From positions 1 through 64,000 of the IMG/VR virus record IMGVR_UViG_3300046459_000436: a stretch of 64,000 nucleotides of DNA; one strand, written 5' to 3'. Shown piece by piece: positions 1 through 26,695 of the stretch. Positions within the stretch are counted from its first letter, which is position 1; each line of letters starts with the position of its first letter. Origin of the DNA: a virus. The translations under genes and the position numbers were made by a program. A model generated the notes under the pieces. That model ran no database searches. It was not told the origin of the DNA and saw only the letters and a list, made by a program, of their open reading frames with translations.

Positions 1-576
1 GTCGTAGCCGACGGCCATGACGCAGTGGCCGCCCTCGATGCGGGCGCCCTTGACGACGTCCCAGACCTGGCCCGCGTTGAACTGGTCCATCGCGGAGTCG
101 GGGAAGTTCATGCCGATGTTCAGCGAGCCGAACAGGGCGATGGCCTGCTTGACCTCGGCGGTCTTGGAGACGTCCACCGCCGCGTAGGCGATGATTTTGT
201 GGCCGATGAGGCCGTTCTTCCGCCAGTAGGCGAGGACGTCCTGGATGTAGGCGCCCTGGTCCGTGGACGGCTTGGCCGGGTTGTAGCCGGTGATCGCCGA
301 GTAGAACGCGAGTACCTGCGTGGTGGTCGGCTTGACCTCGGTGCCGGATCCGTACCAGGTGAGCTGGTTGATCTGGTGGCCGACCTCGGCGCACGTACAG
401 TCTCCGACCGCGTCATTGCCGAGCATGTCCCAGGTGATCGCCGGATCGGCGAACAGGCACTGCGCCGGGGGCGCGGCGAGGATGCGTTGCCGGTGCTCGG
501 CGAGGACGGCGGAGAGCTTCAGGTGCGGTCTGGCGGGCTGGGCGGGAAGCTTCCCGCCTTGGAAGACGATGGTCAC
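1..576 (-). CDS. Papain-like (C1-type) cysteine peptidase, partial (runs off window), at the usual lysis-gene position
   Basis: Absent from ORF track; manual translation from GTG 576 (GGAG upstream): MTIVFQGGKLP...MLGNDAVGDCTCA...DQGAYIQDVLAYWRKNG...GGHCVMAVGYD, with catalytic-type Cys and His motifs. Confidence 0.75.
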   Translation of the reverse strand, partial: MTIVFQGGKLPAQPARPHLKLSAVLAEHRQRILAAPPAQCLFADPAITWDMLGNDAVGDCTCAEVGHQINQLTWYGSGTEVKPTTTQVLAFYSAITGYNPAKPSTDQGAYIQDVLAYWRKNGLIGHKIIAYAAVDVSKTAEVKQAIALFGSLNIGMNFPDSAMDQFNAGQVWDVVKGARIEGGHCVMAVGYD

Positions 577-1469: not shown

Positions 1470-4400
1470 TCAGTACGCGAAGGCGGTGGAGTCGAACGCC
1501 GAGGAGGCGTCGTAGGTGGTGGGGTCGGTGACGCCCGTCGGGAGGGGTTCACAGACGATGTCGCCGATGGCGTGGGTGTGAACGGTCGTACCGGTGAGGG
1601 TGATGACTGCGGTCGTCCAGCCAGGTGAGGTGGCGCCGACGCTGAGGATGGTGACGGTCTCTTGGTGCACCGAGTCGCCCATGCTGAGGACGATGGACTG
1701 TCCGGGGCCGAGTTGGGCGGCCAGCGGGTTGGTGTTGTCGGCGCTGGCGTTGACGGTGATCGTGCTGGCGCCGACGGACACGGCCGCGTTGAGCGTGGCG
1801 TGCCAGGCGGCGAAGAGCGCGTAGGGGGTGAGGTCGGCGGGCGAGCACTGGAGGGTCTGGAAGGCTTCGCCGTCGTCGCCGAAGTCCCAGGCGATGTTTT
1901 CGACGAAGCATTCGACCTGGGTGGCCGGCACGTTGGGTGCGCGGCGCATGATGCGGACGCGGGTGCCGAGCTCCAGGGCGAGACAGACGGGCCACATCGC
2001 GGGGTTCGCCGACGGGTGGAGCTTGATGGAACTGACTCGGGTGGCCGGGTTCTTGTAGCGGCTGAGCAGGTAGTTCGCTGCATCCTGACATTCCAGGGCG
2101 CTGCTGGAGTTGACCGTTCTGCTCATGGTGCGGGGGAAGAAGTTGGCGAGGGATGTCGCATCCGTGGCGTAGAACGCCTGGGACGTGGACTCCTGCGTGA
2201 CGGTGACCTGGTTCGACAGGTGGGTGCTGTCGAAGTCCAGGCTGACGTCCTCGTAGGGCCATTCGCCGGATGAGGTGTTCTCCCCGAAGGTGTAGGCGGG
2301 GGTGGTGGCGTTGTAGCGGGCGGACCGGGAGCGGAATGTGACTGTCCCGGCCCGGTTGACGAAGTGTTCGCCCGCCTCGGTGTCCACTACGGCCTGGAGG
2401 GCGCTGACGGCGTCCTGGCCGTCGATGGCCGCGGGTCCCATGGAGGTGGTGAGGCCGGTCTGTACGGAGCTCGGGCCGGTGTACCCGGAGTAGCGCAGGA
2501 TGCGGGCGTAGCGGGCCGCGCTAGAGTCCCCGGCGCAGGCGGAGCGCCAGGCCGTGTACAGGTTGGTGACGGTCGTGGAGCCGAGGAACGACGGGAATTC
2601 GGCGACGAATGAGATGTCGCCCTTGAAATTGAGGATGGTGCCGTTGCCGACGGTGGGGTCCACGTAGGTGCCGACGTTGTCGCTGATCAGCCCAGATGGG
2701 GCGGTGTTCGCCGCGCTGATGTAGGAGTAGACAACCCCGTCGAGGGCGATGAAGGTGGCCGTGGCGGTCGGGTCGAATCCGAAGATGACCAGGTGCCAGT
2801 CGCCGTCGCACACGTTGGTCGTGCCGGCTACTCGGGAGCCTCCCGCTCCCGTGGGGCCCGCCGACGCGAACTGGACGTACCCGGTGGCGCCGATAGTGAG
2901 GAGGAGGTCCGATCCCGCAGGGACGCCGAGGGCGCGCTGGTTGTCGAATCCCGACCAGAGCACAGCGCTGTTGGCCGGGACCGCTCCTCCCGTGTAGCGG
3001 AAGGCGATCATGCGCGTCCAGATGGTTGTCGCCGGGCCGAGGATGCCGGTCGAGCCGAGGCTGATGAACGTTGCTGCGCTGATCGTGTTGGTGCCCGGGT
3101 TGGCGTTGTTGAGCCTGGCGACAGTGCCGGAGCTGCCCGCGTAGGTGCCACCGGCGTCGTTCGCGGCGATCGCGTTGCCGAAGGTCAGGCTGCCCGCACC
3201 GTACTTGGAGGTGGCGAGCTGCGCGGCCAGGTAGGTGCCGGTGGTGTCCGATACGGACGTGGAGCCCGACGGGTCGTCGAGCTTGAACAGGAACCGCGGC
3301 GAGAGGGTGCTGATCTCCTGGGTGAGGGGGTCCGACAGGGTCTTCTGTGACAGCAGACTGAAGGCGTCCACGGCCGACGGGACGACCTTGCCGTAGGTGC
3401 CGGACATGTCCCAGGTCGACGGCCACCGCTCCATGAACCCTGCGTAAACCGGGTTCCACAGACCAGGGCAGGCCCACGCTGACGCGGTGGAGCCCTTCTC
3501 CAGTTGCCAGCCGTCGACCTGCAGCGAACATGTGGCCGCTGCCGACGATGCGAGGGCCACGCCCACGTCGATGCCCGCCGCGTTACTGGGGGCGGTCGCG
3601 GTGACCGTGATGGTCGTCCACGCGGCCGTCGTCGAGCCCGTCAGGGACGCCGACGAGCCGTAGGTGAACGACGTCGGTGTCGAGCCGCCGCCCGCGGTGT
3701 ACCAGCCGAGGAACGCCTGCACGCTCAGGCTCGTGGATGCGGTGACGTCCCGCACCCGCAGCTGCACCGTGTACGTCTGCCCCGGGATGACGCTGAACCG
3801 GGGCGTGTGGCAGGCGCGCGACGCCGACGCGGACCCGTTCGGCACCGCGAACTGCATGACCATGCCGCCAGCCCACGCCGTGGCGGTAGCGACGAACGAG
3901 CCGCCCGAGGTGTCGGTCGAGGAGAAGATGTCCGCGCCCGCCGAGCCAGATGGGATCGTGCCCGCCGAGTAGCCGCCCAGGTCGCCGCCCGTGGCGTGGA
4001 CCTGGTCCAGGAGGTTGCGGGTCGGCGGCCACTGTGCCCGGCGTCGGTACGGCTGGTACGGCTGAATGTGCCCGTACCAGGGCCCGGAGGCGTTGACCGG
4101 GTCGAGGGCGGCGTCCGTGTTGGCGAGCGTGAGGTTGGCCTCGCCGGAGCGCACCTGGTCCGTCTCGTACTGACGGCCGCGCGACGTCCCCATCGACCCG
4201 CGGGTTCGGTCGGAGACCTCCACGTAACGGTCGAGCGGCGAGTCGCCCGCGTTGGCGTTCCAGTACGGTGCCCACGCATCCTCGATGGTCGGCCAGTTCA
4301 GGTTGAAGGGGCCGCCGAGCATGGTGTTGACGTGCTGGATCGTGGCAGCGTTGCCTGCGGCTTCGGTCCCGCCGGCGCTGGTCTGGAACAGGAACTGCAT

Positions 4401-4892
4401 CGCGGTCGCCGACCACGAGTAGGTGCTGCTGCCGAGCGTCGTCCACGTGAAGCCGTCCGCCGATGCCTCCGCGAAGAATGTGCCGGACGCTTCCCGCAGC
4501 CGCCACCAGCCGTGGGCGTTGGGATCGTAGGTGGTCAGTGCCGTGTTGACCGTCACTCCGGCGGTGAGCACGGTCAGACGGAACACACCCGCTTCGAGGC
4601 GCATCGATACCGCGTTGCTGGCGTCGACCATCAGCTTGAAGATGGTTTTGGTGTTGCCGGAGCCGTTCGGGACCGCCCCCACCTCGGCGTACACGGCACT
4701 CGACGTTGCGTCGTACACACTGGTCGATCCGAAGGTGTTCGTTGTGCCGCTGACCGTGGGCTGCGCCAGTGACACGAGATCATTGACGCTGTCCAGGGCT
4801 GCTGCGCCGCCCGTGACGTTGTTCCACACCACGGCGTTGATGGCCGCTGCGGTGAACGGGTCGGCGAACGTGGACAGCTTGGGGTTGGGCAC
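1470..4892 (-). CDS. Large minor tail / baseplate protein with CBM-like and LamG-like domains
   Basis: 1140 aa directly after TMP; RGRQYETD..SGEANLTLAN, VDGWQLEKGSTAS, DGDWHLV motifs. Confidence 0.85.
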   Translation of the reverse strand: MPNPKLSTFADPFTAAAINAVVWNNVTGGAAALDSVNDLVSLAQPTVSGTTNTFGSTSVYDATSSAVYAEVGAVPNGSGNTKTIFKLMVDASNAVSMRLEAGVFRLTVLTAGVTVNTALTTYDPNAHGWWRLREASGTFFAEASADGFTWTTLGSSTYSWSATAMQFLFQTSAGGTEAAGNAATIQHVNTMLGGPFNLNWPTIEDAWAPYWNANAGDSPLDRYVEVSDRTRGSMGTSRGRQYETDQVRSGEANLTLANTDAALDPVNASGPWYGHIQPYQPYRRRAQWPPTRNLLDQVHATGGDLGGYSAGTIPSGSAGADIFSSTDTSGGSFVATATAWAGGMVMQFAVPNGSASASRACHTPRFSVIPGQTYTVQLRVRDVTASTSLSVQAFLGWYTAGGGSTPTSFTYGSSASLTGSTTAAWTTITVTATAPSNAAGIDVGVALASSAAATCSLQVDGWQLEKGSTASAWACPGLWNPVYAGFMERWPSTWDMSGTYGKVVPSAVDAFSLLSQKTLSDPLTQEISTLSPRFLFKLDDPSGSTSVSDTTGTYLAAQLATSKYGAGSLTFGNAIAANDAGGTYAGSSGTVARLNNANPGTNTISAATFISLGSTGILGPATTIWTRMIAFRYTGGAVPANSAVLWSGFDNQRALGVPAGSDLLLTIGATGYVQFASAGPTGAGGSRVAGTTNVCDGDWHLVIFGFDPTATATFIALDGVVYSYISAANTAPSGLISDNVGTYVDPTVGNGTILNFKGDISFVAEFPSFLGSTTVTNLYTAWRSACAGDSSAARYARILRYSGYTGPSSVQTGLTTSMGPAAIDGQDAVSALQAVVDTEAGEHFVNRAGTVTFRSRSARYNATTPAYTFGENTSSGEWPYEDVSLDFDSTHLSNQVTVTQESTSQAFYATDATSLANFFPRTMSRTVNSSSALECQDAANYLLSRYKNPATRVSSIKLHPSANPAMWPVCLALELGTRVRIMRRAPNVPATQVECFVENIAWDFGDDGEAFQTLQCSPADLTPYALFAAWHATLNAAVSVGASTITVNASADNTNPLAAQLGPGQSIVLSMGDSVHQETVTILSVGATSPGWTTAVITLTGTTVHTHAIGDIVCEPLPTGVTDPTTYDASSAFDSTAFAY

Positions 4893-4938: not shown

Positions 4939-7900
4939 TCAGCGCTTGTACGGCACGTAGGTGCCCGAGTTCCGCATGCCGAGGCGCAGCATCGACTGCT
5001 CCACGACGTCCCGGAGATTGCGTTCGGTCATGACGTGGCCCTCGACCTGGATCGTCAGATGGTTGTGGACGACCGTCCCCCCGGCGCCTCGACCGCCACC
5101 CGCTAGTGCGAGCCCAGGGTTTCCTGGGGTACCTGCGGCCGTGACGGCGCCGGCAAGGTTCGACGCGGCCGTGGTGGCGTGGTGGGCGGCGCCCTCAATG
5201 CCCTTGGCGAGGCCTTGGGGAATGAACACGCCGAGGTCGGCGAAGACCTGCGACGGGCTCCTGATCCCCAACGCCTTCTTGATCGCTCTTTGCATGGCCT
5301 TGGCGATCCGCATCATCTGCCGCTCGATCGCCTTCTCCTGCGACTGCAGTCCCTTGACCAGGCCCTGCGCAGATTTGATGCCAGCCCCGTACATCGAGTC
5401 CGCCACCGACTTGCCAGCCGCGTTCGCCGCGCTCTTCGTGGCCGTCTGCAACTGATTGATCTGCTTGATCTGTGACTTCGACGCACCCGACAGGGCGGCG
5501 GCGGTCGCCCCGCCCTGGTCCACGCCGGCGCCAGCTATCTGCTCGATCAGGTCCGCGCGCAGGCCCTTCTTCTTCAAGGCCTGCAACTGGGCTGCGAACT
5601 GGGTGGCCTTGGCCATCTGGTCGCGCATCTTGTTGACCACGTCCTGCGCGGTCAACGCGAACCCCTCCTGGGGGGCGTCCGTGACGACGGAGAAGCCCTG
5701 CATGATCCCCGAGGCGACCGACTTGGCTTCGTCGGACCATGCCTTCTTCAGGTCGGCGAGCTTCTTCTGTGCAGCCTTCAGCCGGGTGGCCACGTCATCG
5801 CGCTTGTGCGCGAGGCCCATCAGCTCCTTCGACTCCCGGGCGACGTACCGCTGCAAACCCCTGTGGTGGCTTCCGAAGTCGACGTATAGATCCTTGGCCA
5901 GTCGGGTCGTTGCGGACTTCACCCGGGCCGTGGATCCGGTCAGGCCGTCTACGAGACCGTGGACCACCCACCCGCCGAGTTCCTTGAACTTTTTCGACGG
6001 CGACGCGATACCGAGGAACTTCTTCGCCGAGTTCAGCGCACCCTCGGCCAGTCCCTTCATCGCGCTGACCAGAGATGACCCGCCGTTTCGGACGCCCTGG
6101 ATGATGCCGTCGATGATCGCCTTGCCGATCTGCAGGAACCGGGATCCGATGCCCTTGACGGCACTCCATGCGGCGTTGAGGCCGCTGGTGATCGACCTCT
6201 TGATGTTGCCGACCGCGGTGGTGATGCTGCGCCACGCGGCGAGGAGGGGGGTGACCATCGCCGTTTTGATGGCGTTCCACGCGCTGCTCGCGATCGACTT
6301 GATTGCCATCCAGTTGGCGTGGAGAAAGCCGGCGACGGTCTGCCACACCGACTGGAGTCGGTGCCAGATCGCCATGACGGGGTTGATGATGGCGATCTGG
6401 ATGCCACGCCACACAGCGCCGGCGACGGCCTTGATTCCGTTCCATGTGGCATGGAGAAGCGCTTTGATTCCGTTCCAGGCGGCCTTCGCGACGTTGGTGA
6501 TCTGGGTGTGGAAGTGGTTCCAGGTCGCGACCAGGATGCCGATCGGCAGCGCAAAGATCAGCAGGAGGAGCGGCCACCACTTCCGGAAGAACCCGGTGAT
6601 GCCATTCCATACGGTGGCGGTGGTGCGCCCCACCCAGTGCCAGGCGCCCACGATGGGGTCGGCGACCATGTGCCACGCGGACGAGAAGAAACTCGCCACC
6701 GAGCGCCAGGCGCCGACCACCCAGTTGGTGATCGAATGCCAGATGCTGGCGGTGCCGTCGGCGACCCAATGCCACGCGGCGACGACTGCGTGGGCGACTG
6801 CCAGCCCGATGGTCTTGATGAAGCCCCAGACCTGCCGCCAGTGCATGGCCAGCATCACGAGTCCCGCGATGAGCAGGGCGATACCGATGACGATCTCGGG
6901 GATGCCGGTTGCCCACAGCGCTGCGGCCATGTTCCACAGGGAGACCGTGAAGGCATAGACCGCGGCCACCAGGAGTGTCCCGATGACCGCCGCCAAGGCC
7001 GCCGCGACGTCCTTGTGCTTCTCGAAGAACGTGACGGTCGCGAGAATCACCGGGATCAGCTTCAGGCCGAGGGCGATCGCCACAGTGACGATGGCTTCCT
7101 TGAGTCGGCTCATCTGCACGTTGAAGCTGGCCTGGGTGGTCTTCCAGCCTTCGACGTCCTTGGAGGCGTGGTTGAGCGATGTGGCGACCTTGTCGACGCG
7201 GTCCTTGAAGCCGTCGGTGTTCTCGCCGGTCAACTGAAGGGTGGTGTTCAGGCCGATGGCGCCGCCGGTCATCTTCTTGATGGCCTCGGTGTACGTCTGG
7301 GCCGCCGGGCCGCCACGCTTCAACTCGGCTGAGAATCCGTTGGTCTTGTTCTGGAGCGTCGCATACTGCGTCAAAAGGTTGGCCTGCTCGGGCGGGAGGG
7401 TCTTCAGCTCCTTGCGCCAGTCCCCCAGGGAGATGGAGCCCTTCGAGTAGGACTGGGCCAGCTTCTGCAGGTTCGCCGGCATGCTCTTGACCATCGCGTC
7501 CGCGTCCTGGGCGGCTTGCTTGGTCTTGTTGAACGCCGACAGCAGCAGGGTCCCGCTGGGCCCCATCTTGCCGAGGACGGTCTGGCTGAGCAGGTCCAGG
7601 GTGCCGGTAAGACCCCGCTTCCCGATCTTGGTTGCCACATCCGTGCTGGACAGACCGAGGCGCTGCATCTCCTGCACGGCAACACCATTGGGCGCGGCGA
7701 GAGAGCGGATGGTGGAGGCGAGTTCCTGCGTGGCCTCGCGGGCACTGGTGCCGTGCTGGGACAGCGTGGCGATGGCGCCACCGACCTCGGCGAACGAGAC
7801 CTTGTTGGCAGACGCGATGGGGATGACCGTGGACAGTGCGCCCGCGAACTCCTGCATCGTCATCTTGCCCTCGCCGGCCGCGGTCTTCAACGCGTTCATG

Positions 7901-8397
7901 ACCCGCACGCTGTCGGTGGCCTTGAGGTGGTAGGAGGCCATCACCGATGTCATGGCGTTGGTGACGTCCTTGAGGTCGGCGCCCTCCTCGCGGGCACCTT
8001 GTGCTGCGGCGCGCAATACTTTCAGGCCGTCCCCGGCGCGGTATCCGGCCTTCTCGACCTGATACATGCCCTCGGAGAGCACATCGGTGGAGGTGCCGGT
8101 CTCCCGGGCCATGGACAGGACGCCATTGGAGACCATCTTGAGGTTCTTCGTGGACTCGCCGCAGGCGGTAACCAGCAGGTTCATCTTCTGCTGAAAGTCG
8201 CCCGCCGCCTTGACCCCGTAGGCGAGGAATGCGGCGCCGACCAGGACGGTGGCCCCGCCGAGCTTGGTCATGGCGGCGCGAGCCCCGCCCATACTGGCGG
8301 TGAACGACTCGCCCTCCGTGGTGGCCCGGCGCATTCCCATCGTGAACGGCGCGGTCTCGGCTCGGAGCCGCACGAACAGGTCGGCGACGTCAGCCAT
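4939..8397 (-). CDS. Tail tape measure protein
   Basis: 1152 aa, Ala-rich helical, ~11-residue Trp periodicity, LGIASPSK and LGIRSPSQ motifs. Confidence 0.95.
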   Translation of the reverse strand: MADVADLFVRLRAETAPFTMGMRRATTEGESFTASMGGARAAMTKLGGATVLVGAAFLAYGVKAAGDFQQKMNLLVTACGESTKNLKMVSNGVLSMARETGTSTDVLSEGMYQVEKAGYRAGDGLKVLRAAAQGAREEGADLKDVTNAMTSVMASYHLKATDSVRVMNALKTAAGEGKMTMQEFAGALSTVIPIASANKVSFAEVGGAIATLSQHGTSAREATQELASTIRSLAAPNGVAVQEMQRLGLSSTDVATKIGKRGLTGTLDLLSQTVLGKMGPSGTLLLSAFNKTKQAAQDADAMVKSMPANLQKLAQSYSKGSISLGDWRKELKTLPPEQANLLTQYATLQNKTNGFSAELKRGGPAAQTYTEAIKKMTGGAIGLNTTLQLTGENTDGFKDRVDKVATSLNHASKDVEGWKTTQASFNVQMSRLKEAIVTVAIALGLKLIPVILATVTFFEKHKDVAAALAAVIGTLLVAAVYAFTVSLWNMAAALWATGIPEIVIGIALLIAGLVMLAMHWRQVWGFIKTIGLAVAHAVVAAWHWVADGTASIWHSITNWVVGAWRSVASFFSSAWHMVADPIVGAWHWVGRTTATVWNGITGFFRKWWPLLLLIFALPIGILVATWNHFHTQITNVAKAAWNGIKALLHATWNGIKAVAGAVWRGIQIAIINPVMAIWHRLQSVWQTVAGFLHANWMAIKSIASSAWNAIKTAMVTPLLAAWRSITTAVGNIKRSITSGLNAAWSAVKGIGSRFLQIGKAIIDGIIQGVRNGGSSLVSAMKGLAEGALNSAKKFLGIASPSKKFKELGGWVVHGLVDGLTGSTARVKSATTRLAKDLYVDFGSHHRGLQRYVARESKELMGLAHKRDDVATRLKAAQKKLADLKKAWSDEAKSVASGIMQGFSVVTDAPQEGFALTAQDVVNKMRDQMAKATQFAAQLQALKKKGLRADLIEQIAGAGVDQGGATAAALSGASKSQIKQINQLQTATKSAANAAGKSVADSMYGAGIKSAQGLVKGLQSQEKAIERQMMRIAKAMQRAIKKALGIRSPSQVFADLGVFIPQGLAKGIEGAAHHATTAASNLAGAVTAAGTPGNPGLALAGGGRGAGGTVVHNHLTIQVEGHVMTERNLRDVVEQSMLRLGMRNSGTYVPYKR

Positions 8398-17494: not shown

Positions 17495-17540
17495 CCCCCT
17501 TCAGCGCCAGGATTGGAGACCCAAGAGGAAAGCAACGCCC

Positions 17541-18338
17541 TCATGGCTTCTGAGGCGAAGCCTGCCTCCGGGCTCGCGCCCGCTCCCGCAGGCAGGTTCG
17601 GCACTTGCGGCTGGGAGTCTTGCCATTACCGCTTCGCTCGATCACGGTATTTGCCTCGTCATAGGGGTGACCCTGAGGGCAGTGTGTCTTCCGCCCTGGC
17701 CGCCCCTGTGCGCGCCACTCTGCCCACCACTTTCGTTTCGCCTCTGCGACCTTCGCCCGCGAGGACGCGTTGGTCATCGGCTGAAGTGCGCGCGCCTTGG
17801 CTGCTTTGCTCAGCTTGCCCCGGGTCTCGTCCGAGGTGATGCTTCCCGCCGCTCGCCAGTCTGCCCAGCGTTTCGTCGTGGCCTCCGAGACCGCCTTCCG
17901 TGTGTTCGCTGGAATCGTCTTGCCCTTGTGCACGCGACTGACGGCCTGGCGCCGGACGGGGTCTTTCATCCGTTCGAGGGCGGCCTGCCGAATCCGCTCT
18001 CGGGTTTCGGGGGATGCGATGCGCCCCAGGGTTCCAGGGCCGCCATCAGTCGCGTTGGTCAGGCGAGCGCCCTGAGCTCTGTACGTGGTGATCCATCGCC
18101 GCTCGGCTTCTCCGTGGCTCTCGATCGGAACGATCTCAATCTCCGTCATGACTGGCGAGACACCGACTTTGAGCAATGAGCGGATCCACCGGCTCTTGTA
18201 GTCCTGGCGCCCAGTATCGGAGATGTGCCCTCGAAGCCGCTCGGCGAGCGAGCGTGTTGTGACCCCGACGTAGCGAACTTCACCGTTACGAGGGTCACTC
18301 AACGTGTAGATCCAGGCCATCCGCTCATGCACGTCCAT
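17541..18338 (-). CDS. GIY-YIG endonuclease with NUMOD3-like repeats and C-terminal Zn finger
   Basis: WIYTL...RYVGVT..R..GH, E..WI, LTN..DGG; SPETRERI/SDETRGKLS repeats; THCPQGH..CRTC; start uncertain (18338 or 18320). Confidence 0.85.
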   Translation of the reverse strand: MDVHERMAWIYTLSDPRNGEVRYVGVTTRSLAERLRGHISDTGRQDYKSRWIRSLLKVGVSPVMTEIEIVPIESHGEAERRWITTYRAQGARLTNATDGGPGTLGRIASPETRERIRQAALERMKDPVRRQAVSRVHKGKTIPANTRKAVSEATTKRWADWRAAGSITSDETRGKLSKAAKARALQPMTNASSRAKVAEAKRKWWAEWRAQGRPGRKTHCPQGHPYDEANTVIERSGNGKTPSRKCRTCLRERARARRQASPQKP

Positions 18339-18375
18339 GTACATCAATGTACATGAGTGGCTCTCTCTGTACTCT
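18337..18375. promoter_or_regulatory. Tandem ATGTACAT palindromes (Phd/YefM-type operator) plus divergent -10 elements
   Basis: ATGTACAT at 18337-18344 and 18347-18354; TACTCT 18370-18375 lies 6 nt before the phd ATG. Confidence 0.65.
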
Positions 18376-18381
18376 GGCGTT

Positions 18382-18576
18382 ATGAAGGAAGAACCAGTCG
18401 AGATGAGTACCGCTGAAGTTCGCACGAACCTTGCGGACGTGGTCAACGCGGCAGTCCGAAACCGGATCACTTTCGTGACCAGTCGCGGGCGCCGCGTGGC
18501 GGCGGTTGTCCCGCTATCCATCGCCGAGGAGGCAGTGGAACGCGAAGACGGGGGCCCTAGCCGACCCGCTTCTTGA
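18382..18576 (+). CDS. Orphan Phd/YefM-family antitoxin-like DNA-binding protein
   Basis: STAEVRTNLADVVNAA..RITFVTSRGRRVAAVVP is the Phd/YefM signature. Confidence 0.85.
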   Translation: MKEEPVEMSTAEVRTNLADVVNAAVRNRITFVTSRGRRVAAVVPLSIAEEAVEREDGGPSRPAS

Positions 18577-18652
18577 TGAGCGGCAGCACATCCTTGGCGC
18601 GCAGCGGATGGTTCGGAGGATCGGGCGGCAGCGGTTCAGGCGGCACGCTCAT
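18557..18652 (-). CDS. 31-aa peptide overlapping the portal end
   Basis: MSVPPEPLPPDPPNHPLRAKDVLPLIKKRVG with AGGAGG RBS. Confidence 0.5.
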   Translation of the reverse strand: MSVPPEPLPPDPPNHPLRAKDVLPLIKKRVG

Positions 18653-21711: not shown

Positions 21712-21728
21712 GACTCACCCCTTCCTGA

Positions 21729-22442
21729 TCAGACGGCGCGGAGGTGGCGGGCGGCGACTTGCTTGGCCGCGGCAGCAGATTCGCCGGTCACGCCAGCCGC
21801 GATGAGTGCCGCGTCGATGGCCCGCAACACGGTCTCGGCCTGCTTCTCGGTGATTGCCGCAAGCCTCTCGTCGATGTTGAGGCGGGCGATGTTGGCGAGC
21901 AGCGTTCCGGCCTGGTTGACGGCCCTTTCGTACAGGGCGACTTCGGCGCGGAGTTGCTCGCCGGCGCCGCCCTTGTAGCGGATCTCTTCGAGTTCGTTGA
22001 CCTTGGCGCCGAGCGCGTTCTTGAACGCGAGCACTTCGCCGGCCAGCTCGCTGAGTGCGGTGAGCGGGTTGTCGACGGGGCTGGCGCCGATCTGGACGAG
22101 CAGCTTGTTGGCTTCCTTCATCAGCTTCACCTCCGCGATCCGCTTCCCCGCCGCTTTGAGGGCGTTGGGTGCTTTGCCGCCGTGCGCCTTGCAGACGTCC
22201 TGGCCCCTCATGGCCCAGTCGGTGCAGCGCTGTCCGGCGTTGTGGCCGTTCTTGGTGGTGCCGGTGCAGCGGCGTTCGTCGGGTGCTTTGCCGATGAGGC
22301 CTTGGCCGCTGTGGCGGTGGCAGACGTCGTAGCCGGGGAGCGTCCAGAGTTGGCAGCGTCCGCGGGGGTCGCCGCTGGGGTAGAGGCGGATGGTGACGCA
22401 TTGCCGGTCTGGGGGTGGCTTGCGGGGGCCGGGGTGTGCCAT
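21729..22442 (-). CDS. terS: Probable terminase small subunit with two HGG-type Zn knuckles
   Basis: Directly upstream of terL; C..C..C..H repeats (CHRHSG, CKAHGG) plus coiled coil. Confidence 0.7.
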   Translation of the reverse strand: MAHPGPRKPPPDRQCVTIRLYPSGDPRGRCQLWTLPGYDVCHRHSGQGLIGKAPDERRCTGTTKNGHNAGQRCTDWAMRGQDVCKAHGGKAPNALKAAGKRIAEVKLMKEANKLLVQIGASPVDNPLTALSELAGEVLAFKNALGAKVNELEEIRYKGGAGEQLRAEVALYERAVNQAGTLLANIARLNIDERLAAITEKQAETVLRAIDAALIAAGVTGESAAAAKQVAARHLRAV

Positions 22443-22867
22443 TAGCTGCTGCCGGTAGTCCAGTGCTCGGGCAGCAGTGTCGGCGCGGGTTCGTCGACCG
22501 GCTCGGGCTCGGGCAGCGGCTCGGGGGTGCAGTCGCAGCCGGGCAGGTCCGCCTCGCTGGGCGCGGTGCAGCTGCTGGCATGGACGAGTGCGGCGGCGTC
22601 CATGTCGATGGCGTGCGGTCCGCAGGCGAAGACGGGGGTGGTGCACTCGTCGGCCTGCGGGAGCGGCCCGAACTCGGGGGCCGGGAGCTGAGGGTCGGCG
22701 AGGAGGAGCCGCTCGTCGCGCTTCTCCTGTTCGAGGGTGATGTGCGCGGCGAGTTCGGCGGCGGTGAGGCGCCGCCGCCACTGCACGATCGCCCGGTCGG
22801 GGCAGGCCGTACACCGCGGGCCTGCGGGCGCCGGAGCGGCCGGGGTGGTGTCGGCAGGGCTGGTCAC
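22442..22867 (-). CDS. Cys-rich hypothetical protein
   Basis: 141 aa, CTAC, CGPH, CDC; GGAGG RBS. Confidence 0.65.
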   Translation of the reverse strand: MTSPADTTPAAPAPAGPRCTACPDRAIVQWRRRLTAAELAAHITLEQEKRDERLLLADPQLPAPEFGPLPQADECTTPVFACGPHAIDMDAAALVHASSCTAPSEADLPGCDCTPEPLPEPEPVDEPAPTLLPEHWTTGSS

Positions 22868-22877
22868 AGTGGCCTCC

Positions 22878-24290
22878 TCAGGCGGGTTCTGGGCCGATGT
22901 TTTCGAGGCGCATCCGGAACGGGTACGCGGTGTGGGCGTAGACGACTCCGGAGCCGGTGCCCTGATGCGCGAGCGCGACCGTGATGCTGCCCGCGTTGAT
23001 GTGACCGGCGCCGATGGTGAACATCTCAACCATCTCCTCGTACCCGAAGCTCAGCGAGGGGTACAGGTCCGGGTCACCCTCAGGGAGCGGGCTGCTGGTG
23101 AAAGTGCCCGCATAGATGGCGATCGCGCCCGCGTTGTCGAGGAGGGCCCAGTCGAGGAAGTGGCTGCCGGCGCGCATGAACCCGCCGTGGACCTTGATGC
23201 GGTCGCCCACGGCCGCCGCAATCGAGCACTGGAGCTTCGTCGTCGCGGACGTCTGCACGATCGTCCACGACGCGGCCGACGGCAGGCCACCCAGGTTGTC
23301 GTCGGTGATGCGAATGCTGGCCGTGCGGGTCGATGAGCCGCCGCTACCAGCCGGGAGCACTACCCCGATCGTCCCGGATGCCGACCGGACCTTGAGGACG
23401 CCACCCTCGACGTACAGCACTGCACCGGAGGCCGGGTTGCTGTCGGGGATAGTGACTGCATTGGGCAGGTGCAGCACCCCAACGCCGTCGCCGAAGTCGA
23501 CACCGCCGTCCAGCAGCGCAACATTTGGCCCGCTCACCCCGGGCTGCACGCGCAGCACGGGCACACCGTTGGCCGAGTCGACGAGGTACAGGTCTTGTGA
23601 CCCCGGACCCATCTGCCAGGCCCAGCGGTCCACGCCCGCCGTGCGCAGTCCGTAGGCGGCGTAGTTGGTGGTGGCACCGCGGTCCACGGCGTTGATGGCG
23701 GTGCCGGTGGAGTCGACGATGAGGTTGCCGTCGGCGATGGTGACGGTGCCATCGACGGTGCCGCCGCCATCAAGGGCGAGGTACTTCGCGGCGGCGTCAG
23801 CTTCGGCAGCCGCTGTTGCGGCATCGGCCTTCGTCGTGGCATCCGTGGCCGCCGCGCCGATCGCCGCCGCCTGGGCCGCGTTGGCCTTGGTGGTCGCATC
23901 GGTTGCCGCTGCGGCCTGGGCGGCTGCTGCTGCTCCGATCGTGTCGAAGTCGCCGACCGCATGGGTGGCCGCCGTGCCGAGACCGAGGTTGTTGCGGGAG
24001 GTAGTGGCGTTCTGTACGTCGGACAGATTGTTCTCGGCGAGCAGCGCCCCGACCGTGCCGGCGCCGCCGAAGGTGATGCCGCTGCCTGGCCATGCTCCGG
24101 CCACCTTGGGTCCGTACAGGACTGCAGAGGTGGGGTAGTTGGTGGTGTCCACGTAGTAGTCGCCGTCGATGCCCGTACCGCTGGACGGTGCGCCGACGCC
24201 GTTGAGAACGGCGTTGCCGCGCGGGCCTTGTGCGCCGGTTGGGGAGACGATGACGGTGGGTGGGGCGGTGACGGTGACGGGCACGGTCAC
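22878..24290 (-). CDS. Fibre-like virion protein
   Basis: GAQGPRG collagen-like start, NNLSD..RNNLGLG, Ala-rich coiled coil, beta-rich C-terminus. Confidence 0.75.
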   Translation of the reverse strand: MTVPVTVTAPPTVIVSPTGAQGPRGNAVLNGVGAPSSGTGIDGDYYVDTTNYPTSAVLYGPKVAGAWPGSGITFGGAGTVGALLAENNLSDVQNATTSRNNLGLGTAATHAVGDFDTIGAAAAAQAAAATDATTKANAAQAAAIGAAATDATTKADAATAAAEADAAAKYLALDGGGTVDGTVTIADGNLIVDSTGTAINAVDRGATTNYAAYGLRTAGVDRWAWQMGPGSQDLYLVDSANGVPVLRVQPGVSGPNVALLDGGVDFGDGVGVLHLPNAVTIPDSNPASGAVLYVEGGVLKVRSASGTIGVVLPAGSGGSSTRTASIRITDDNLGGLPSAASWTIVQTSATTKLQCSIAAAVGDRIKVHGGFMRAGSHFLDWALLDNAGAIAIYAGTFTSSPLPEGDPDLYPSLSFGYEEMVEMFTIGAGHINAGSITVALAHQGTGSGVVYAHTAYPFRMRLENIGPEPA

Positions 24291-24677: not shown

Positions 24678-24839
24678 TTAGCTGAGGTGCTGTCCGGCGT
24701 GAATCACGAACGGGATCCCGAAGGCGACGAGCCCGGCGGCGACCATCCGTACCCGGTCGAGGGCCGGTGTCGCATTGGGGGCGATCGCGGCGAGGCCCCA
24801 GATGACGACGGCGATCAGGTAGCAGATCAGGTCAAGCAC
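24678..24839 (-). CDS. Small two-TM membrane protein
   Basis: 53 aa, two hydrophobic segments, GGAGG RBS. Confidence 0.6.
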   Translation of the reverse strand: MLDLICYLIAVVIWGLAAIAPNATPALDRVRMVAAGLVAFGIPFVIHAGQHLS

Positions 24840-24849
24840 GGTGGCCTCC

Positions 24850-25164
24850 TCAGCTCTTAGCGCGGCGCAGGTATGCGGACCCCGGCGAACCGTGAATGCC
24901 GAGGCTCCGCAGTTCTCGCTGCACGACGTCACGGAGGTCACGTTCGTTGAGGACGCCGCCGTGGACGTGGATGGTGATCGCGGTCGGCGGGCCGTCCGAC
25001 TCGGTAGCGGTCTGCTCGTGCGCCGCGTCGATGTGCTCGCGGATCCCGTCCGCGATCGCCCCGCAGGGGATGCGCAGGTTGCGTTCGTCGCCGCCGTCGA
25101 TGAGGACGCTCAGCGGGCAGTCGCAGACGGGGCACAGGACTCGGATCGCGCGAATGTCGGGCAC
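24850..25164 (-). CDS. Zn-ribbon protein with TMP-like C-terminus
   Basis: CPVC..C..H; C-terminal 30 aa are 15/30 identical to the TMP C-terminus. Confidence 0.7.
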   Translation of the reverse strand: MPDIRAIRVLCPVCDCPLSVLIDGGDERNLRIPCGAIADGIREHIDAAHEQTATESDGPPTAITIHVHGGVLNERDLRDVVQRELRSLGIHGSPGSAYLRRAKS

Positions 25165-25167
25165 GGG

Positions 25168-25392
25168 CTACGCCTCCTGCTCGGCGTGCGCCGTGACGAA
25201 TGCGACCGCATCCGCTTCGATATCGAGGATCGCGGCGGGGACGGTGAGCCGGGCCTCGGCCTGCCCGTTCACGTCGAGGACGAGTTCCACGCGGGACACG
25301 AAGGTCAGCGGCTCGCCGTCGAGTTCGATGGTTGCCGTGGTGGGGTCGCCGTCGCAGCGGACGACGAGGCGGTGGCGTTCGGGTTGGGGCAT
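25168..25392 (-). CDS. Hypothetical protein (74 aa)
   Basis: GGAG RBS, beta-rich. Confidence 0.6.
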   Translation of the reverse strand: MPQPERHRLVVRCDGDPTTATIELDGEPLTFVSRVELVLDVNGQAEARLTVPAAILDIEADAVAFVTAHAEQEA

Positions 25393-25624
25393 GCAGGTCT
25401 CCAGGGTGTGCGGTAGCCCCGGCGCCTGGAACGCCGGGGCCGCCTACCCGGCCGCGATCAACGGCGGGCGATGGGGGGTGTTGGGGCCCGCTGCCCGGCG
25501 GGCTCGGTGAAGTACCGGGCAGCGGGGTTCCGGCACGCTCGGGGGGGGGCGTTGAGCGCCGGTTGTGTCCTCGCGGCCGGGAGCGACCCGCAAGCGCTCA
25601 ACCGGACCGCGAGGAGCGTGGGGG

Positions 25625-25867
25625 TTACGCGGCCTGTAAGGCGACGCGACGGGCGTGCGGACCGGTGGCCGCCTGCTGCCGCTCTTCGGCGATCGCTTCT
25701 ATCTCCGGCCTGGCGTACATGGTGCCGTCACAGCGGCGTTGCCCCGGGAACCTGTGGATCTTCCCGCGAGTGGCCCACTGTCGGACCGCCGCCTCAGAGA
25801 CGCCAGCAATCTCGGCGGCCTCGCTGGCAGAGATGAGGTCCTCGGGATCAAGATGCCAGATATCCAT
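25625..25867 (-). CDS. HTH (MerR-like) protein, probable late regulator
   Basis: ISASEAAEIAGVSEAAVRQWATRGKI. Confidence 0.8.
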   Translation of the reverse strand: MDIWHLDPEDLISASEAAEIAGVSEAAVRQWATRGKIHRFPGQRRCDGTMYARPEIEAIAEERQQAATGPHARRVALQAA

Positions 25868-25996: not shown

Positions 25997-26695
25997 TCAA
26001 GCTGCGACCGATTCTCCAGGGGTGCCGTGGAGGGCATCGCGGAGCTTCTCCCACGCTTCACGGTCGGGCCATTCGGTGCCGCAGCCCTGACACTTGATGG
26101 CCTCCTTCCGGGTGGACGCGGTGAGTTGGCGTTTGCACGGGCCGTCAACGGTGAGGACCGGGCAGGCGCCAATGCGGATGGGCCCGATCCTCCGATCCGG
26201 CGACAGAGCAGCCGTGCACTCGGAGTGCAGCCGCCGGATCTCCTCCACGTCCTGCCCGACCTCCGCGTACCGTTCGCACGCCCACCCGAGGTTGTTGGTC
26301 AGGAACTCGATCTGCTTGGGCAGGGATTGGCCGGCGTTGCCGCGCCACGGTGTGACCGTCCAGCCGAGGGTCTGCCGCCACGCGTCCTCAATTACCTGCA
26401 GACGGGTGGCGACTCCTCCAGCCGCGGCGAGGTTGAGGACTTCGGCGTTGGCGGGGATCGGCGGCACGCGCGACCCGGTGGGCATCCCGGTTCCACGCCG
26501 GGAGCCCCGGACGAGCGCGGCGGTCGTGTTGACGCGGGCGAAGAGGGCGGGGAGTTCGGCGAGCCGCTTCCCGGTGCGGTCCTGACAGGGACGGCACGCC
26601 CAGCGGTCGGTCTCGTCGGCCCACAGGTCTTTGCTGCAGGCCACGCAGCGCGGCCACACGTAGCTGGAGTCTTCGGCGGTAGCAAGGTCGTGCAC
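25997..26695 (-). CDS. Zn-finger protein typical of the actinophage early/late boundary
   Basis: CVAC, CRPC, C..C, CQGC..W motifs. Confidence 0.7.
   Translation of the reverse strand: MHDLATAEDSSYVWPRCVACSKDLWADETDRWACRPCQDRTGKRLAELPALFARVNTTAALVRGSRRGTGMPTGSRVPPIPANAEVLNLAAAGGVATRLQVIEDAWRQTLGWTVTPWRGNAGQSLPKQIEFLTNNLGWACERYAEVGQDVEEIRRLHSECTAALSPDRRIGPIRIGACPVLTVDGPCKRQLTASTRKEAIKCQGCGTEWPDREAWEKLRDALHGTPGESVAA

What the first reader, a model, noticed from the sequence alone, without database searches (positions are those of the whole stretch)
24850..25164. Small Zn-ribbon protein that copies the tape measure C-terminus (possible TMP decoy)
Seen: its C-terminus TIHVHGGVLNERDLRDVVQRELRSLGIHGS aligns without gaps to the TMP C-terminus TIQVEGHVMTERNLRDVVEQSMLRLGMRNS (within ~4939-5065), 15/30 identical, while synonymous positions differ. 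It is the second gene of the apparent late operon. Known: the TMP C-terminus engages the tail-tip complex to start tail assembly, and some prophage defences act on tail assembly. Inference: a mimic that times own tail assembly, blocks tail tips of related phages, or decoys a TMP-sensing defence.
Basis: partly seen in the sequence, partly recalled or inferred. Interest (0 to 1): 0.75.

Follow-up and report, generated by a model that had tools for sequence, protein, structure and literature searches.

The report
Small protein copying the tape-measure tip
An uncultured Streptomyces-type phage carries a small, swappable accessory gene whose tail end is a real, selectively kept copy of the last ~40 residues of the phage's own tail tape measure protein (the piece that plugs into the tail tip in related phages), so it probably imitates that plug, but what it does is untested.

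Summary
ORF 24850-25164 (minus strand, 104 aa) ends in a ~40-residue module homologous to the extreme C-terminus of the phage's own tape measure protein (TMP, 4939-8397). BLASTP gives 15/31 identical, E=3e-7. Reciprocal profiles that leave out the tested sequence give E=4e-12 and 1e-8 against all 1274 six-frame ORFs of the 80.5-kb circular genome; the next-best hits are E>0.2.

The module is the near-invariant C-terminal end of at least 30 Streptomyces, Kitasatospora and Frankiales phage TMPs. Outside TMPs, 5.8 billion proteins yielded only five carriers. Four share the CxxC/HxxxxH N-domain; one has an unrelated N-terminus. All show an acidic linker, a strand-helix and a terminal Y-x-R(R).

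The gene sits in a variable cassette slot with four alleles, one of which lacks the gene altogether. A near-complete relative with the same TMP end has no small carrier. So it is an accessory gene, not a core assembly part.

It is not a classical Zn-ribbon, and its module is not specially matched to its own TMP. The most likely role is a soluble competitive mimic of the TMP plug, but the target is unknown. The complex prediction gave no answer.

This scan has already noted stand-alone TMP-tip copies in several unrelated phages. Two literature searches found no published description.

The parts
24850..25164 (-). P0001, the 104-aa accessory protein. It has a CxxC/HxxxxH N-domain, an acidic linker and a TMP-end module.
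   Evidence: ORF, translation and SD AGGAGG before GTG. Homologues are P0003/P0027, P0004 and P0005.
25018..25164 (-). N-terminal domain, residues 1-49. Predicted strand-strand-helix with conserved C11, C14, H44 and H49.
   Evidence: Alignments. AF2 model with strands 3-10 and 17-24 and helix 36-49, but mean pLDDT is only 57.7. No Pfam, PHROG, NCBIfam or PADLOC hit.
24979..25017 (-). Acidic, proline-containing linker, residues 50-62 (EQTATESDGPPTA). An 'E/D-P/S-D' linker of this kind is present in all small carriers.
   Evidence: Alignments. pLDDT is below 50 for residues 52-59.
24862..24978 (-). TMP-end module, residues 63-101. It comprises a strand (ITIHV), G69, the helix ERDLRDVVQRELRSLG and the terminal Y98-L-R-R101, followed by three extra residues, AKS.
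   Evidence: BLASTP, profiles, alignment, secondary structure.
4939..8397 (-). Tape measure protein, 1152 aa.
   Evidence: PF10145 E=7e-24. TIGR01760. Related to the phage 80alpha TMP, PDB 6v8i.
4942..5058 (-). C-terminal module of the TMP, residues 1114-1152 (LTIQVEGHVMTERNLRDVVEQSMLRLGMRNSGTYVPYKR). This is the template of the copy.
   Evidence: The same module ends at least 30 TMPs or TMP fragments.
1470..4892 (-). 1140-aa tail protein (phrog_5313) encoded directly after the TMP. It is the candidate docking partner of the TMP end.
   Evidence: PHROG E=9e-127. A homologue follows the module-bearing TMP in all four related viral contigs. Its fold could not be predicted; pLDDT was 40.
25168..25392 (-). 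74-aa ORF sharing the cassette with P0001. It is an insertion relative to locus L001.
   Evidence: No family was found.
24678..24839 (-). 53-aa two-helix membrane protein. It forms the conserved downstream flank of the cassette slot.
   Evidence: SD GAGGAGG before GTG 24839. Conserved in L001. Flank of the replacements seen in runs X3 and X5.
25393..25624 (-). Conserved, structured intergenic leader. It forms the upstream flank of the cassette slot.
   Evidence: 92% identical to L001 right up to the start codon. Stable hairpins, folding z-score -2.97.

Best explanation
P0001 is a non-essential, fast-swapping accessory protein. It displays a diverged copy of the tape measure protein's C-terminal plug on a flexible acidic linker. 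The copied parts are the strand, the first helix turns and the terminal Y-x-R-R.

I think it acts as a soluble competitive mimic. It would occupy whatever normally grips the TMP end. That could be a factor that attacks or senses the TMP end, making P0001 a decoy made together with the late proteins. Or it could be the hub pocket of a tail tip, making it an interference protein. I lean slightly toward the decoy, because it is co-oriented with and lies just upstream of the structural genes, so it would be made when the phage's own TMP is made, and poisoning hub pockets then would harm the phage's own tails.

Shown here: the homology, its conservation, the accessory and variable status of the locus, and the signals of a translated gene. 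Inferred: that the TMP module is the hub-embedded end, by analogy with phage Douge and lambda; that the copy binds a partner of the TMP end; and the identity of that partner.
For: - Homology is robust in both directions.
- The module is the near-invariant extreme C-terminus of at least 30 actinobacterial phage TMPs, with 72-74% identity within each class.
- The TMP is always followed by the same tail protein.
- In Douge the last 42 TMP residues form a trimer buried in the lumen between the distal tail protein and the baseplate hub (PMC13033339). In lambda, gpH residues 818-842 sit in the tip lumen (PMC10721106).
- The copy is under constraint. pN/pS is 0.35 for the module between P0001 and P0004. 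The first 27 columns are 55% identical within the family. The terminal aromatic-x-R(R) is kept in 4 of 5 carriers even where the 10-15 residues before it are unalignable, against 1 of 126 genome proteins, and that one is the TMP itself.
- Two unrelated N-domains and one 150-aa insert variant carry the same linker and module.
- The locus is a cassette slot between conserved flanks. L001 has a 258-aa variant without the 74-aa ORF. Run X3 replaces the last ~20 codons. Run X5 replaces the whole 631 bp with 664 other letters.
- Records with the same TMP end, including one 89% complete, have no small carrier.
- Strong SDs and tight gene spacing.
- Factors that engage TMPs do exist: SNIPE (bioRxiv 10.1101/2025.11.03.685801) and Avs18 (bioRxiv 10.64898/2026.01.04.697583). 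In the Tai/Ati system the protective Ati is a late-operon gene (PMC11364771).
Against: - There is no binding or expression evidence of any kind.
- Only the first half of the module is conserved among the small proteins. The second half is 20% identical, whereas it is conserved in TMPs, so the copy cannot reproduce the full TMP-hub interface.
- The module is no closer to its own TMP class than to the other class, 0.42 against 0.41.
- The family is very rare, with five proteins in 5.8 billion.
- That the TMP module docks in the hub is an analogy. It shows no sequence similarity to any solved TMP end.
- A decoy of an activating sensor might trigger that sensor rather than block it.
Confidence: 0.42

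Rival explanations
1. Borrowed oligomerisation unit. In TMPs the strand-helix module is mainly a trimerisation element. The small proteins use it only to oligomerise their own N-domain, for example a Zn-finger-like nucleic-acid or protein binder acting at the switch to late genes. Resemblance to the TMP is then ancestry, not function.
For: Only the strand and the first helix turns are conserved in the small family. The helix is amphipathic with i/i+4 E-R and R-D pairs. TMP ends are trimeric in solved tails. The N-domain has a CxxC/HxxxxH layout. The gene lies beside an HTH protein at the early/late junction.
Against: The terminal aromatic-x-R(R), which lies outside the helix, is retained in 4 of 5 carriers. 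The locus behaves as a swappable accessory slot, not a regulator slot. No DNA-binding family matched.
Confidence: 0.2
2. Virion passenger. The module is an address tag that loads the small protein into the tail-tip lumen beside the TMP ends, so that it is expelled into the host envelope or cell ahead of the DNA.
For: It is co-oriented with and lies just upstream of tail-fibre and packaging genes. Different N-domains and an insert variant share the same tag. In Douge, three TMP ends sit against a six-fold distal-tail ring, which leaves unused equivalent sites (PMC13033339).
Against: No proteomic data exist. The second half of the module is degenerate. Lumen space is tight. The gene is absent from relatives with the same TMP end and tail protein.
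Confidence: 0.12
3. Evolutionary relic. This is a chimeric ORF made by illegitimate recombination with a TMP 3' end, drifting without function.
For: The family is rare. The second half of the module is degenerate. The locus is mosaic.
Against: Four diverged family members and one unrelated carrier keep the frame, the start, the SD, the first half of the module and the terminal signature. pN/pS is below 0.5 in both halves of the gene. An identical copy occurs in contigs of two other metagenome runs, X2 and X4.
Confidence: 0.1

Closest known systems
Hub-embedded C-terminal segment of siphophage tape measure proteins (mycobacteriophage Douge TMP residues 1658-1699; lambda gpH residues 818-842)
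   Same: It has the same position, the last ~40 residues of a TMP. It has the same size and the same kind of host phage, an actinobacterial siphophage. The P0001 module is homologous to this phage's own TMP end.
   Different: There is no detectable sequence similarity between this module and any solved TMP end. P0001 is a free 104-aa protein, not a TMP, and keeps only the first half of the module well.
Tai/Ati tail-assembly interference systems of prophages and PICIs (PMC11364771)
   Same: Both are accessory, mobile-element-encoded proteins acting on tail-tip assembly. The protective partner, Ati, is expressed from the late operon.
   Different: Tai targets the central tail fibre, not the TMP. 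It is not described as a mimic of a structural protein. P0001 has no PADLOC hit. No sequence relation could be tested, because no Tai/Ati sequences or models were on hand.
TMP-directed exclusion or defence: HK97 gp15, TP-J34 Ltp (both from general knowledge), SNIPE (bioRxiv 10.1101/2025.11.03.685801), Avs18 (bioRxiv 10.64898/2026.01.04.697583)
   Same: They show that the TMP is a recognised target in phage-phage and phage-host conflict, which is the premise of a decoy or blocker.
   Different: These proteins bind or sense TMPs and do not resemble them. P0001 resembles a TMP end. No such system was identified for this phage's host.
Stand-alone TMP-tip copies noted earlier by this scan in other phages (e1-5867390, e1-6010184, e1-5958614, e1-6027985)
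   Same: The architecture is the same: a small accessory protein whose C-terminus copies the last 30-40 residues of a TMP.
   Different: These are different phages with no sequence relation to P0001. Here the N-domain has a CxxC/HxxxxH layout, and the locus is shown to be a swappable slot.

Membership tests
Tape measure protein (Pfam PF10145 PhageMin_Tail / TIGR01760) | Match to the conserved N-terminal TMP core domain, and a length of several hundred residues or more | tested here: not met
   P0001 has no Pfam or NCBIfam hit and is 104 aa. Only the last ~40 residues relate to a TMP.
TMP C-terminal end module of Streptomyces/Kitasatospora phage TMPs (defined here) | Significant profile match to the strand-G-x-V-x-x-E-R-x-L-R-D-V helix | tested here: met
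   An HMM of 18 foreign TMP ends hits P0001 at E=1.3e-8; the next ORF is at E=1.6.
TMP C-terminal end module of Streptomyces/Kitasatospora phage TMPs (defined here) | Conserved second half, M-L-R-L-G-M-R-N-S-x-T-Y, and a protein ending in [YF]-x-R(R) | tested here: inconclusive
   P0001 keeps L-R-S-L-G-I-H-G-S and Y-L-R-R but adds AKS. Within its family this half is only 20% identical.
Zinc ribbon | Two conserved CxxC (or CxxH) knuckles on two beta hairpins | tested here: not met
   Only C11-x2-C14 is conserved. C16 and C34 are replaced in P0004 and P0005. The other conserved ligand candidates are H44 and H49 on a predicted helix.
C2H2-like beta-beta-alpha zinc finger | CxxC at a hairpin plus HxxxH on the following helix, with a match to a family model | tested here: inconclusive
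   The layout fits: strands 3-10 and 17-24 and helix 36-49. But the Cys-His spacing is 29 residues, the model has low confidence (pLDDT 57.7) and no Pfam model matches.
Known anti-phage defence proteins (PADLOC-DB) | Match to a PADLOC model | tested here: not met
   No hit at E<=0.1 for P0001, P0004, P0007 or the neighbouring small genes.
Tai/Ati tail assembly interference | Sequence or structural relation to TaiA or AtiA, plus tail-assembly inhibition or protection | not testable with these tools
   No models or sequences of Tai/Ati were available. There is only a conceptual parallel.

The most novel reading that the evidence does not exclude
Free-standing copies of the tape measure protein's tip-docking end are a general, so far undescribed class of phage conflict proteins. 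They would be decoys that soak up TMP-directed immunity or exclusion factors, or plugs that jam rival tail tips. This family would be one lineage among several that arose independently in unrelated phages.
Probability: 0.3. Interest if true: 0.8.

Novelty: new variant of a known kind. Interest (0 to 1): 0.58.

Why it matters
The TMP end seals the tail tip and is the first phage part to leave the virion at infection. A phage-encoded soluble imitation of it would be a new kind of handle on tail assembly, genome ejection, or the defences that watch them. The same design turns up in several unrelated phages in this scan. Here it sits in a swappable slot with natural alleles, including one with a 150-aa insert, one with a replaced tail, and one in which the whole cassette is replaced. 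That makes the idea directly testable by binding, virion proteomics and plating experiments. If it is a decoy, it also points to an unknown factor in Streptomyces that recognises TMP ends.

Tried and rejected
**Tools and searches that gave nothing**
The 42.8-kb contig of P0003 and the contigs of P0005 and P0007 could not be fetched, so no second cognate pair of small protein and TMP could be compared.
- The TMP in L001 is cut at residue 769.
- Scans with P0001, P0003, P0005, P0007 or the TMP end found no further small-carrier locus beyond L001: genome contigs, metagenome contigs, viral contigs.
- INPHARED phages hold no match to P0001, the 43-aa TMP end or the 1140-aa tail protein.
- The PDB holds no sequence match to the module.
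- The ESM Atlas gave no usable hit.

**Spurious or negative comparisons**
- P0006 and P0008 from the representative search are spurious repeat proteins.
- P0028-P0036 are TMP fragments on short contigs, not new carriers.
- The N-terminus of P0007 is not detectably related to the P0001 N-domain.
- The 74-aa ORF and the P0004 insert match nothing in the genome or the family.
- The 123-aa flank gene has no homologue in G002 or G003, so the slot could not be located there.

**Structure and complex predictions**
- The AF2 model of the 1140-aa tail protein, built from five sequences, failed (pLDDT 40). Its Dit/hub nature is unresolved, no fold search was run, and a complex with it was not attempted.
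- Complex prediction with two TMP ends plus P0001 gave 'no answer' (score 0.01, controls not run). This is not evidence either way.

**Expression**
- No RNA holder was listed among public runs.

**Ideas considered and dropped**
- A recent DNA duplication of the TMP 3' end: nucleotide identity is only 68%.
- A role as tail assembly chaperone, or a lambda gpI-like plug: there is no similarity, and the gene is dispensable in relatives.

Full report
**Setting.** The window is bases 1-64000 of an 80,673-bp IMG/VR virus record. Its first 128 bases recur at its end, so it is a closed circle of about 80.5 kb. G+C is 69%, and almost all genes lie on the minus strand.

The gene order, reading the minus strand, is:
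- early and replication genes;
- a phrog_1467 protein (25997-26695);
- an Xis/MerR/TerS-like HTH protein (25625-25867);
- a structured 232-bp leader;
- a 74-aa ORF (25168-25392);
- the finding (24850-25164);
- a 53-aa two-helix membrane protein (24678-24839);
- a phrog_1084 protein, then a collagen-like tail-fibre protein (22878-24290);
- large terminase, portal and major capsid;
- the TMP (4939-8397);
- a 1140-aa phrog_5313 tail protein (1470-4892);
- a small virion protein;
- across the origin, an amidase and a holin-like lysis cassette.

**The observation.** The 104-aa ORF (P0001) is preceded by AGGAGG 7 nt before its GTG start. It is tightly packed against its neighbours, which have equally good Shine-Dalgarno sites. 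Its GC3 is 0.87.

Residues 63-93 align without gaps to TMP residues 1114-1144. That is 15/31 identical, E=3e-7 for the pair. A profile of the four other small carriers, without P0001, finds the TMP at E=3.8e-12 among all 1274 six-frame ORFs; the runner-up is E=0.26. A profile of 18 TMP ends from other phages, without this TMP or its identical copies, finds P0001 at E=1.3e-8; the runner-up is E=1.6. So the similarity is real homology.

12 of the 15 identical residues use the same codon, and nucleotide identity is 63/93. In a genome with ~90% GC3 this is uninformative.

**What the module is.** A profile search of 5.8 billion proteins restricted to long proteins returned only TMPs (PF10145) of Streptomyces, Kitasatospora and uncultured sources. 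In every one the match is the extreme C-terminus. The same search among short and mid-size proteins added nine more, all recognisable TMP fragments on short contigs. Four viral contigs add further examples.

The module follows a glycine-rich linker. It reads V-x-V-x-V-[EQ]-G-x-V-[LM]-[ST]-E-R-[ND]-L-R-D-V-V-E-Q-x-M-L-R-L-G-M-R-N-S-x-T-Y-x-x-Y-[AK]-R(R)-COOH. It falls into two classes that are 72-74% identical within a class and 54% identical between classes. In all four contigs, as in the window, the next gene is a homologue of the 1140-aa tail protein.

No solved structure matches the module by sequence. By position and size it corresponds to known tip-embedded TMP ends. In mycobacteriophage Douge, TMP residues 1658-1699 form a trimer buried in the lumen between the distal tail protein and the baseplate hub, with ~3,564 Å² against the hub (PMC13033339). 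In lambda, gpH residues 818-842 form a three-helix coil in the tip lumen (PMC10721106). That the module plays this part here is an inference.

**Who else carries it.** An exhaustive phmmer search of 1.84 billion representatives found four real relatives:
- P0003, 92 aa. Its cluster-mate P0027 is 101 aa.
- P0005, 106 aa.
- P0004, 258 aa. This is the same N-domain and the same module separated by a ~150-residue insert. It is encoded at L001 3063-3839.
- P0007, 121 aa. Its N-terminus is not detectably related, but its linker and module are clearly homologous and lean toward the second TMP class, 0.51 against 0.42.

P0006 and P0008 are repeat-protein artefacts.

All carriers have an acidic, proline-containing linker, the strand, the invariant V67, G69, E74, L77 and D79, and the module at the very C-terminus. 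Within the P0001 family the first 27 module columns are 55% identical, but the rest only 20%. Even so, four of five carriers still end in aromatic-x(1-3)-R(R). Among 126 predicted proteins of this genome, only the TMP itself shows that ending. Between P0001 and P0004, pN/pS is 0.35 for the module and 0.47 for the N-domain, on small counts. So the copy is maintained by selection, but it is a partial copy.

**The N-domain.** Only C11, C14, H44 and H49 are conserved; C16 and C34 are not. AF2 on a 10-row alignment gives strands 3-10 and 17-24 and helix 36-49, then a disordered linker, strand 61-65 and helix 74-87. Mean pLDDT is only 57.7. The layout is beta-beta-alpha with CxxC...HxxxxH, not a two-knuckle zinc ribbon. 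No Pfam, PHROG, NCBIfam or PADLOC model matches.

**The locus is a swappable slot.** L001 is a relative whose TMP is 93% identical. Against it, the leader is 92% identical right up to the first start codon and the downstream membrane gene is 84% identical. Between those flanks, the window has the 74-aa ORF plus P0001, whereas L001 has the 258-aa P0004 alone.

Contigs of four other soil, rhizosphere and root metagenomes were laid on the locus:
- X2 and X4 hold the identical sequence.
- X3 has a 19.8-kb contig, the length recorded for P0027's contig. It replaces 24841-24916, the last ~20 codons, with 73 other letters.
- X5 joins 24849 to 25481 through 664 unrelated letters. The whole cassette is exchanged there.

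Records G002 (51% complete) and G003 (89% complete) have the TMP module but no second copy at E<=1. A gene that is exchanged, remodelled or absent among close relatives with the same TMP end and tail protein is an accessory gene. It is not a component needed to build the tail.

**Interpretation.** The data support a protein that presents a TMP-end look-alike on a flexible tether. The most economical mechanism is competition for a partner of the TMP end.

Two targets are possible. If the target is the hub pocket, the protein would interfere with tail-tip assembly or sealing. Made together with the phage's own late proteins, that would hurt the phage itself unless the diverged module prefers foreign hubs. 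If the target is a factor that binds TMP ends, a late-made decoy makes sense. That reading also fits the arms-race-like variability and the dispensability. Such factors exist in other hosts: SNIPE associates with TMPs, Avs18 senses TMPs, and in Tai/Ati the protective Ati is a late-operon gene. I therefore lean to the decoy version, but the split is close and nothing was measured.

The main rival is that the conserved half is simply a trimerisation element reused by a small Zn-finger-like protein. The degenerate second half favours this. The retained terminal signature and the cassette behaviour count against it. A virion-passenger role and a relic are less likely.

There is no sign that the P0001 module tracks its own TMP class, 0.42 against 0.41. 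With only one complete pair available, co-variation could not really be tested.

**What failed.** The 1140-aa tail protein could not be modelled (pLDDT 40), so I could not show that it is the hub, nor dock anything to it. One complex job, with two TMP ends plus P0001, returned 'no answer'.

**Novelty.** Two literature searches found TMP-directed defences and tail-assembly interference. They found no description of phage proteins that copy the TMP end.

This scan has already recorded the same design in several unrelated phages: e1-5867390, e1-6010184, e1-5958614 and e1-6027985. None is related to P0001 in sequence. This instance is therefore one more independent lineage of a recurring but unpublished pattern. 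It adds natural allelic variation in a defined cassette slot and a second, unrelated N-domain on the same module.

Noticed in passing
window 1-128 and G000 80546-80673: The first 128 bases of the record recur at its end. The contig is therefore a closed circular assembly of about 80,545 bp. The lysis cassette, an amidase at 79386-80192 and a holin-like gene at 79046-79360, follows the tail genes across the origin.
   Followed up: partly
window 24850-25480: This is a cassette slot between a conserved leader and a conserved membrane-protein gene. Four alleles were seen: the 74-aa ORF plus P0001; P0004 alone (L001); a P0027-type allele with the 3' end replaced (run X3); and a wholly different 664-bp insert of unknown content (run X5).
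   Followed up: partly
window 25393-25624 (minus strand): The conserved intergenic leader folds into very stable hairpins (MFE -126 kcal/mol, z-score -2.97). These include a 12-bp GC stem ending about 25 nt before the RBS of the first cassette gene. It may be a terminator, an attenuator or a packaging-related site.
   Followed up: no
L005 10207-14190; window 1470-4892: The N-terminal ~220 residues of the 1140-aa tail protein are tandemly duplicated in a relative, whose protein is 1327 aa. Residues ~330-470 were the only part AF2 modelled with confidence, as a beta sandwich. A segment around residue 238 (RGRQYE.DQVRSGEA.LTL.N) is conserved across the five homologues aligned; from memory alone it recalls distal-tail proteins, which was not tested.
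   Followed up: partly
window 22878-24290; L001 4637-7108: The collagen-like tail-fibre protein encoded upstream of the terminase is 470 aa here but 823 aa in L001. The two share the N-terminal ~300 residues, and L001 adds a long C-terminal domain. This looks like a receptor-binding domain swap.
   Followed up: no
window 21719-22877 and 17495-18635: Two stretches of ~1.1 kb have no confident high-GC3 ORF in my gene map. The first is 94% conserved with L001. Other first-reader notes on this genome propose a terminase frameshift in the first stretch and a GIY-YIG/Phd pair in the second.
   Followed up: no
window 4939-5400: The TMP segment just upstream of the end module, containing ALGIRSPSQVF...GLAKGI, matches TMPs of more than 700 cultured phages of many Gram-positive hosts. 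The last ~40 residues match none of them. The end module is thus a lineage-specific addition to a widespread TMP core.
   Followed up: partly
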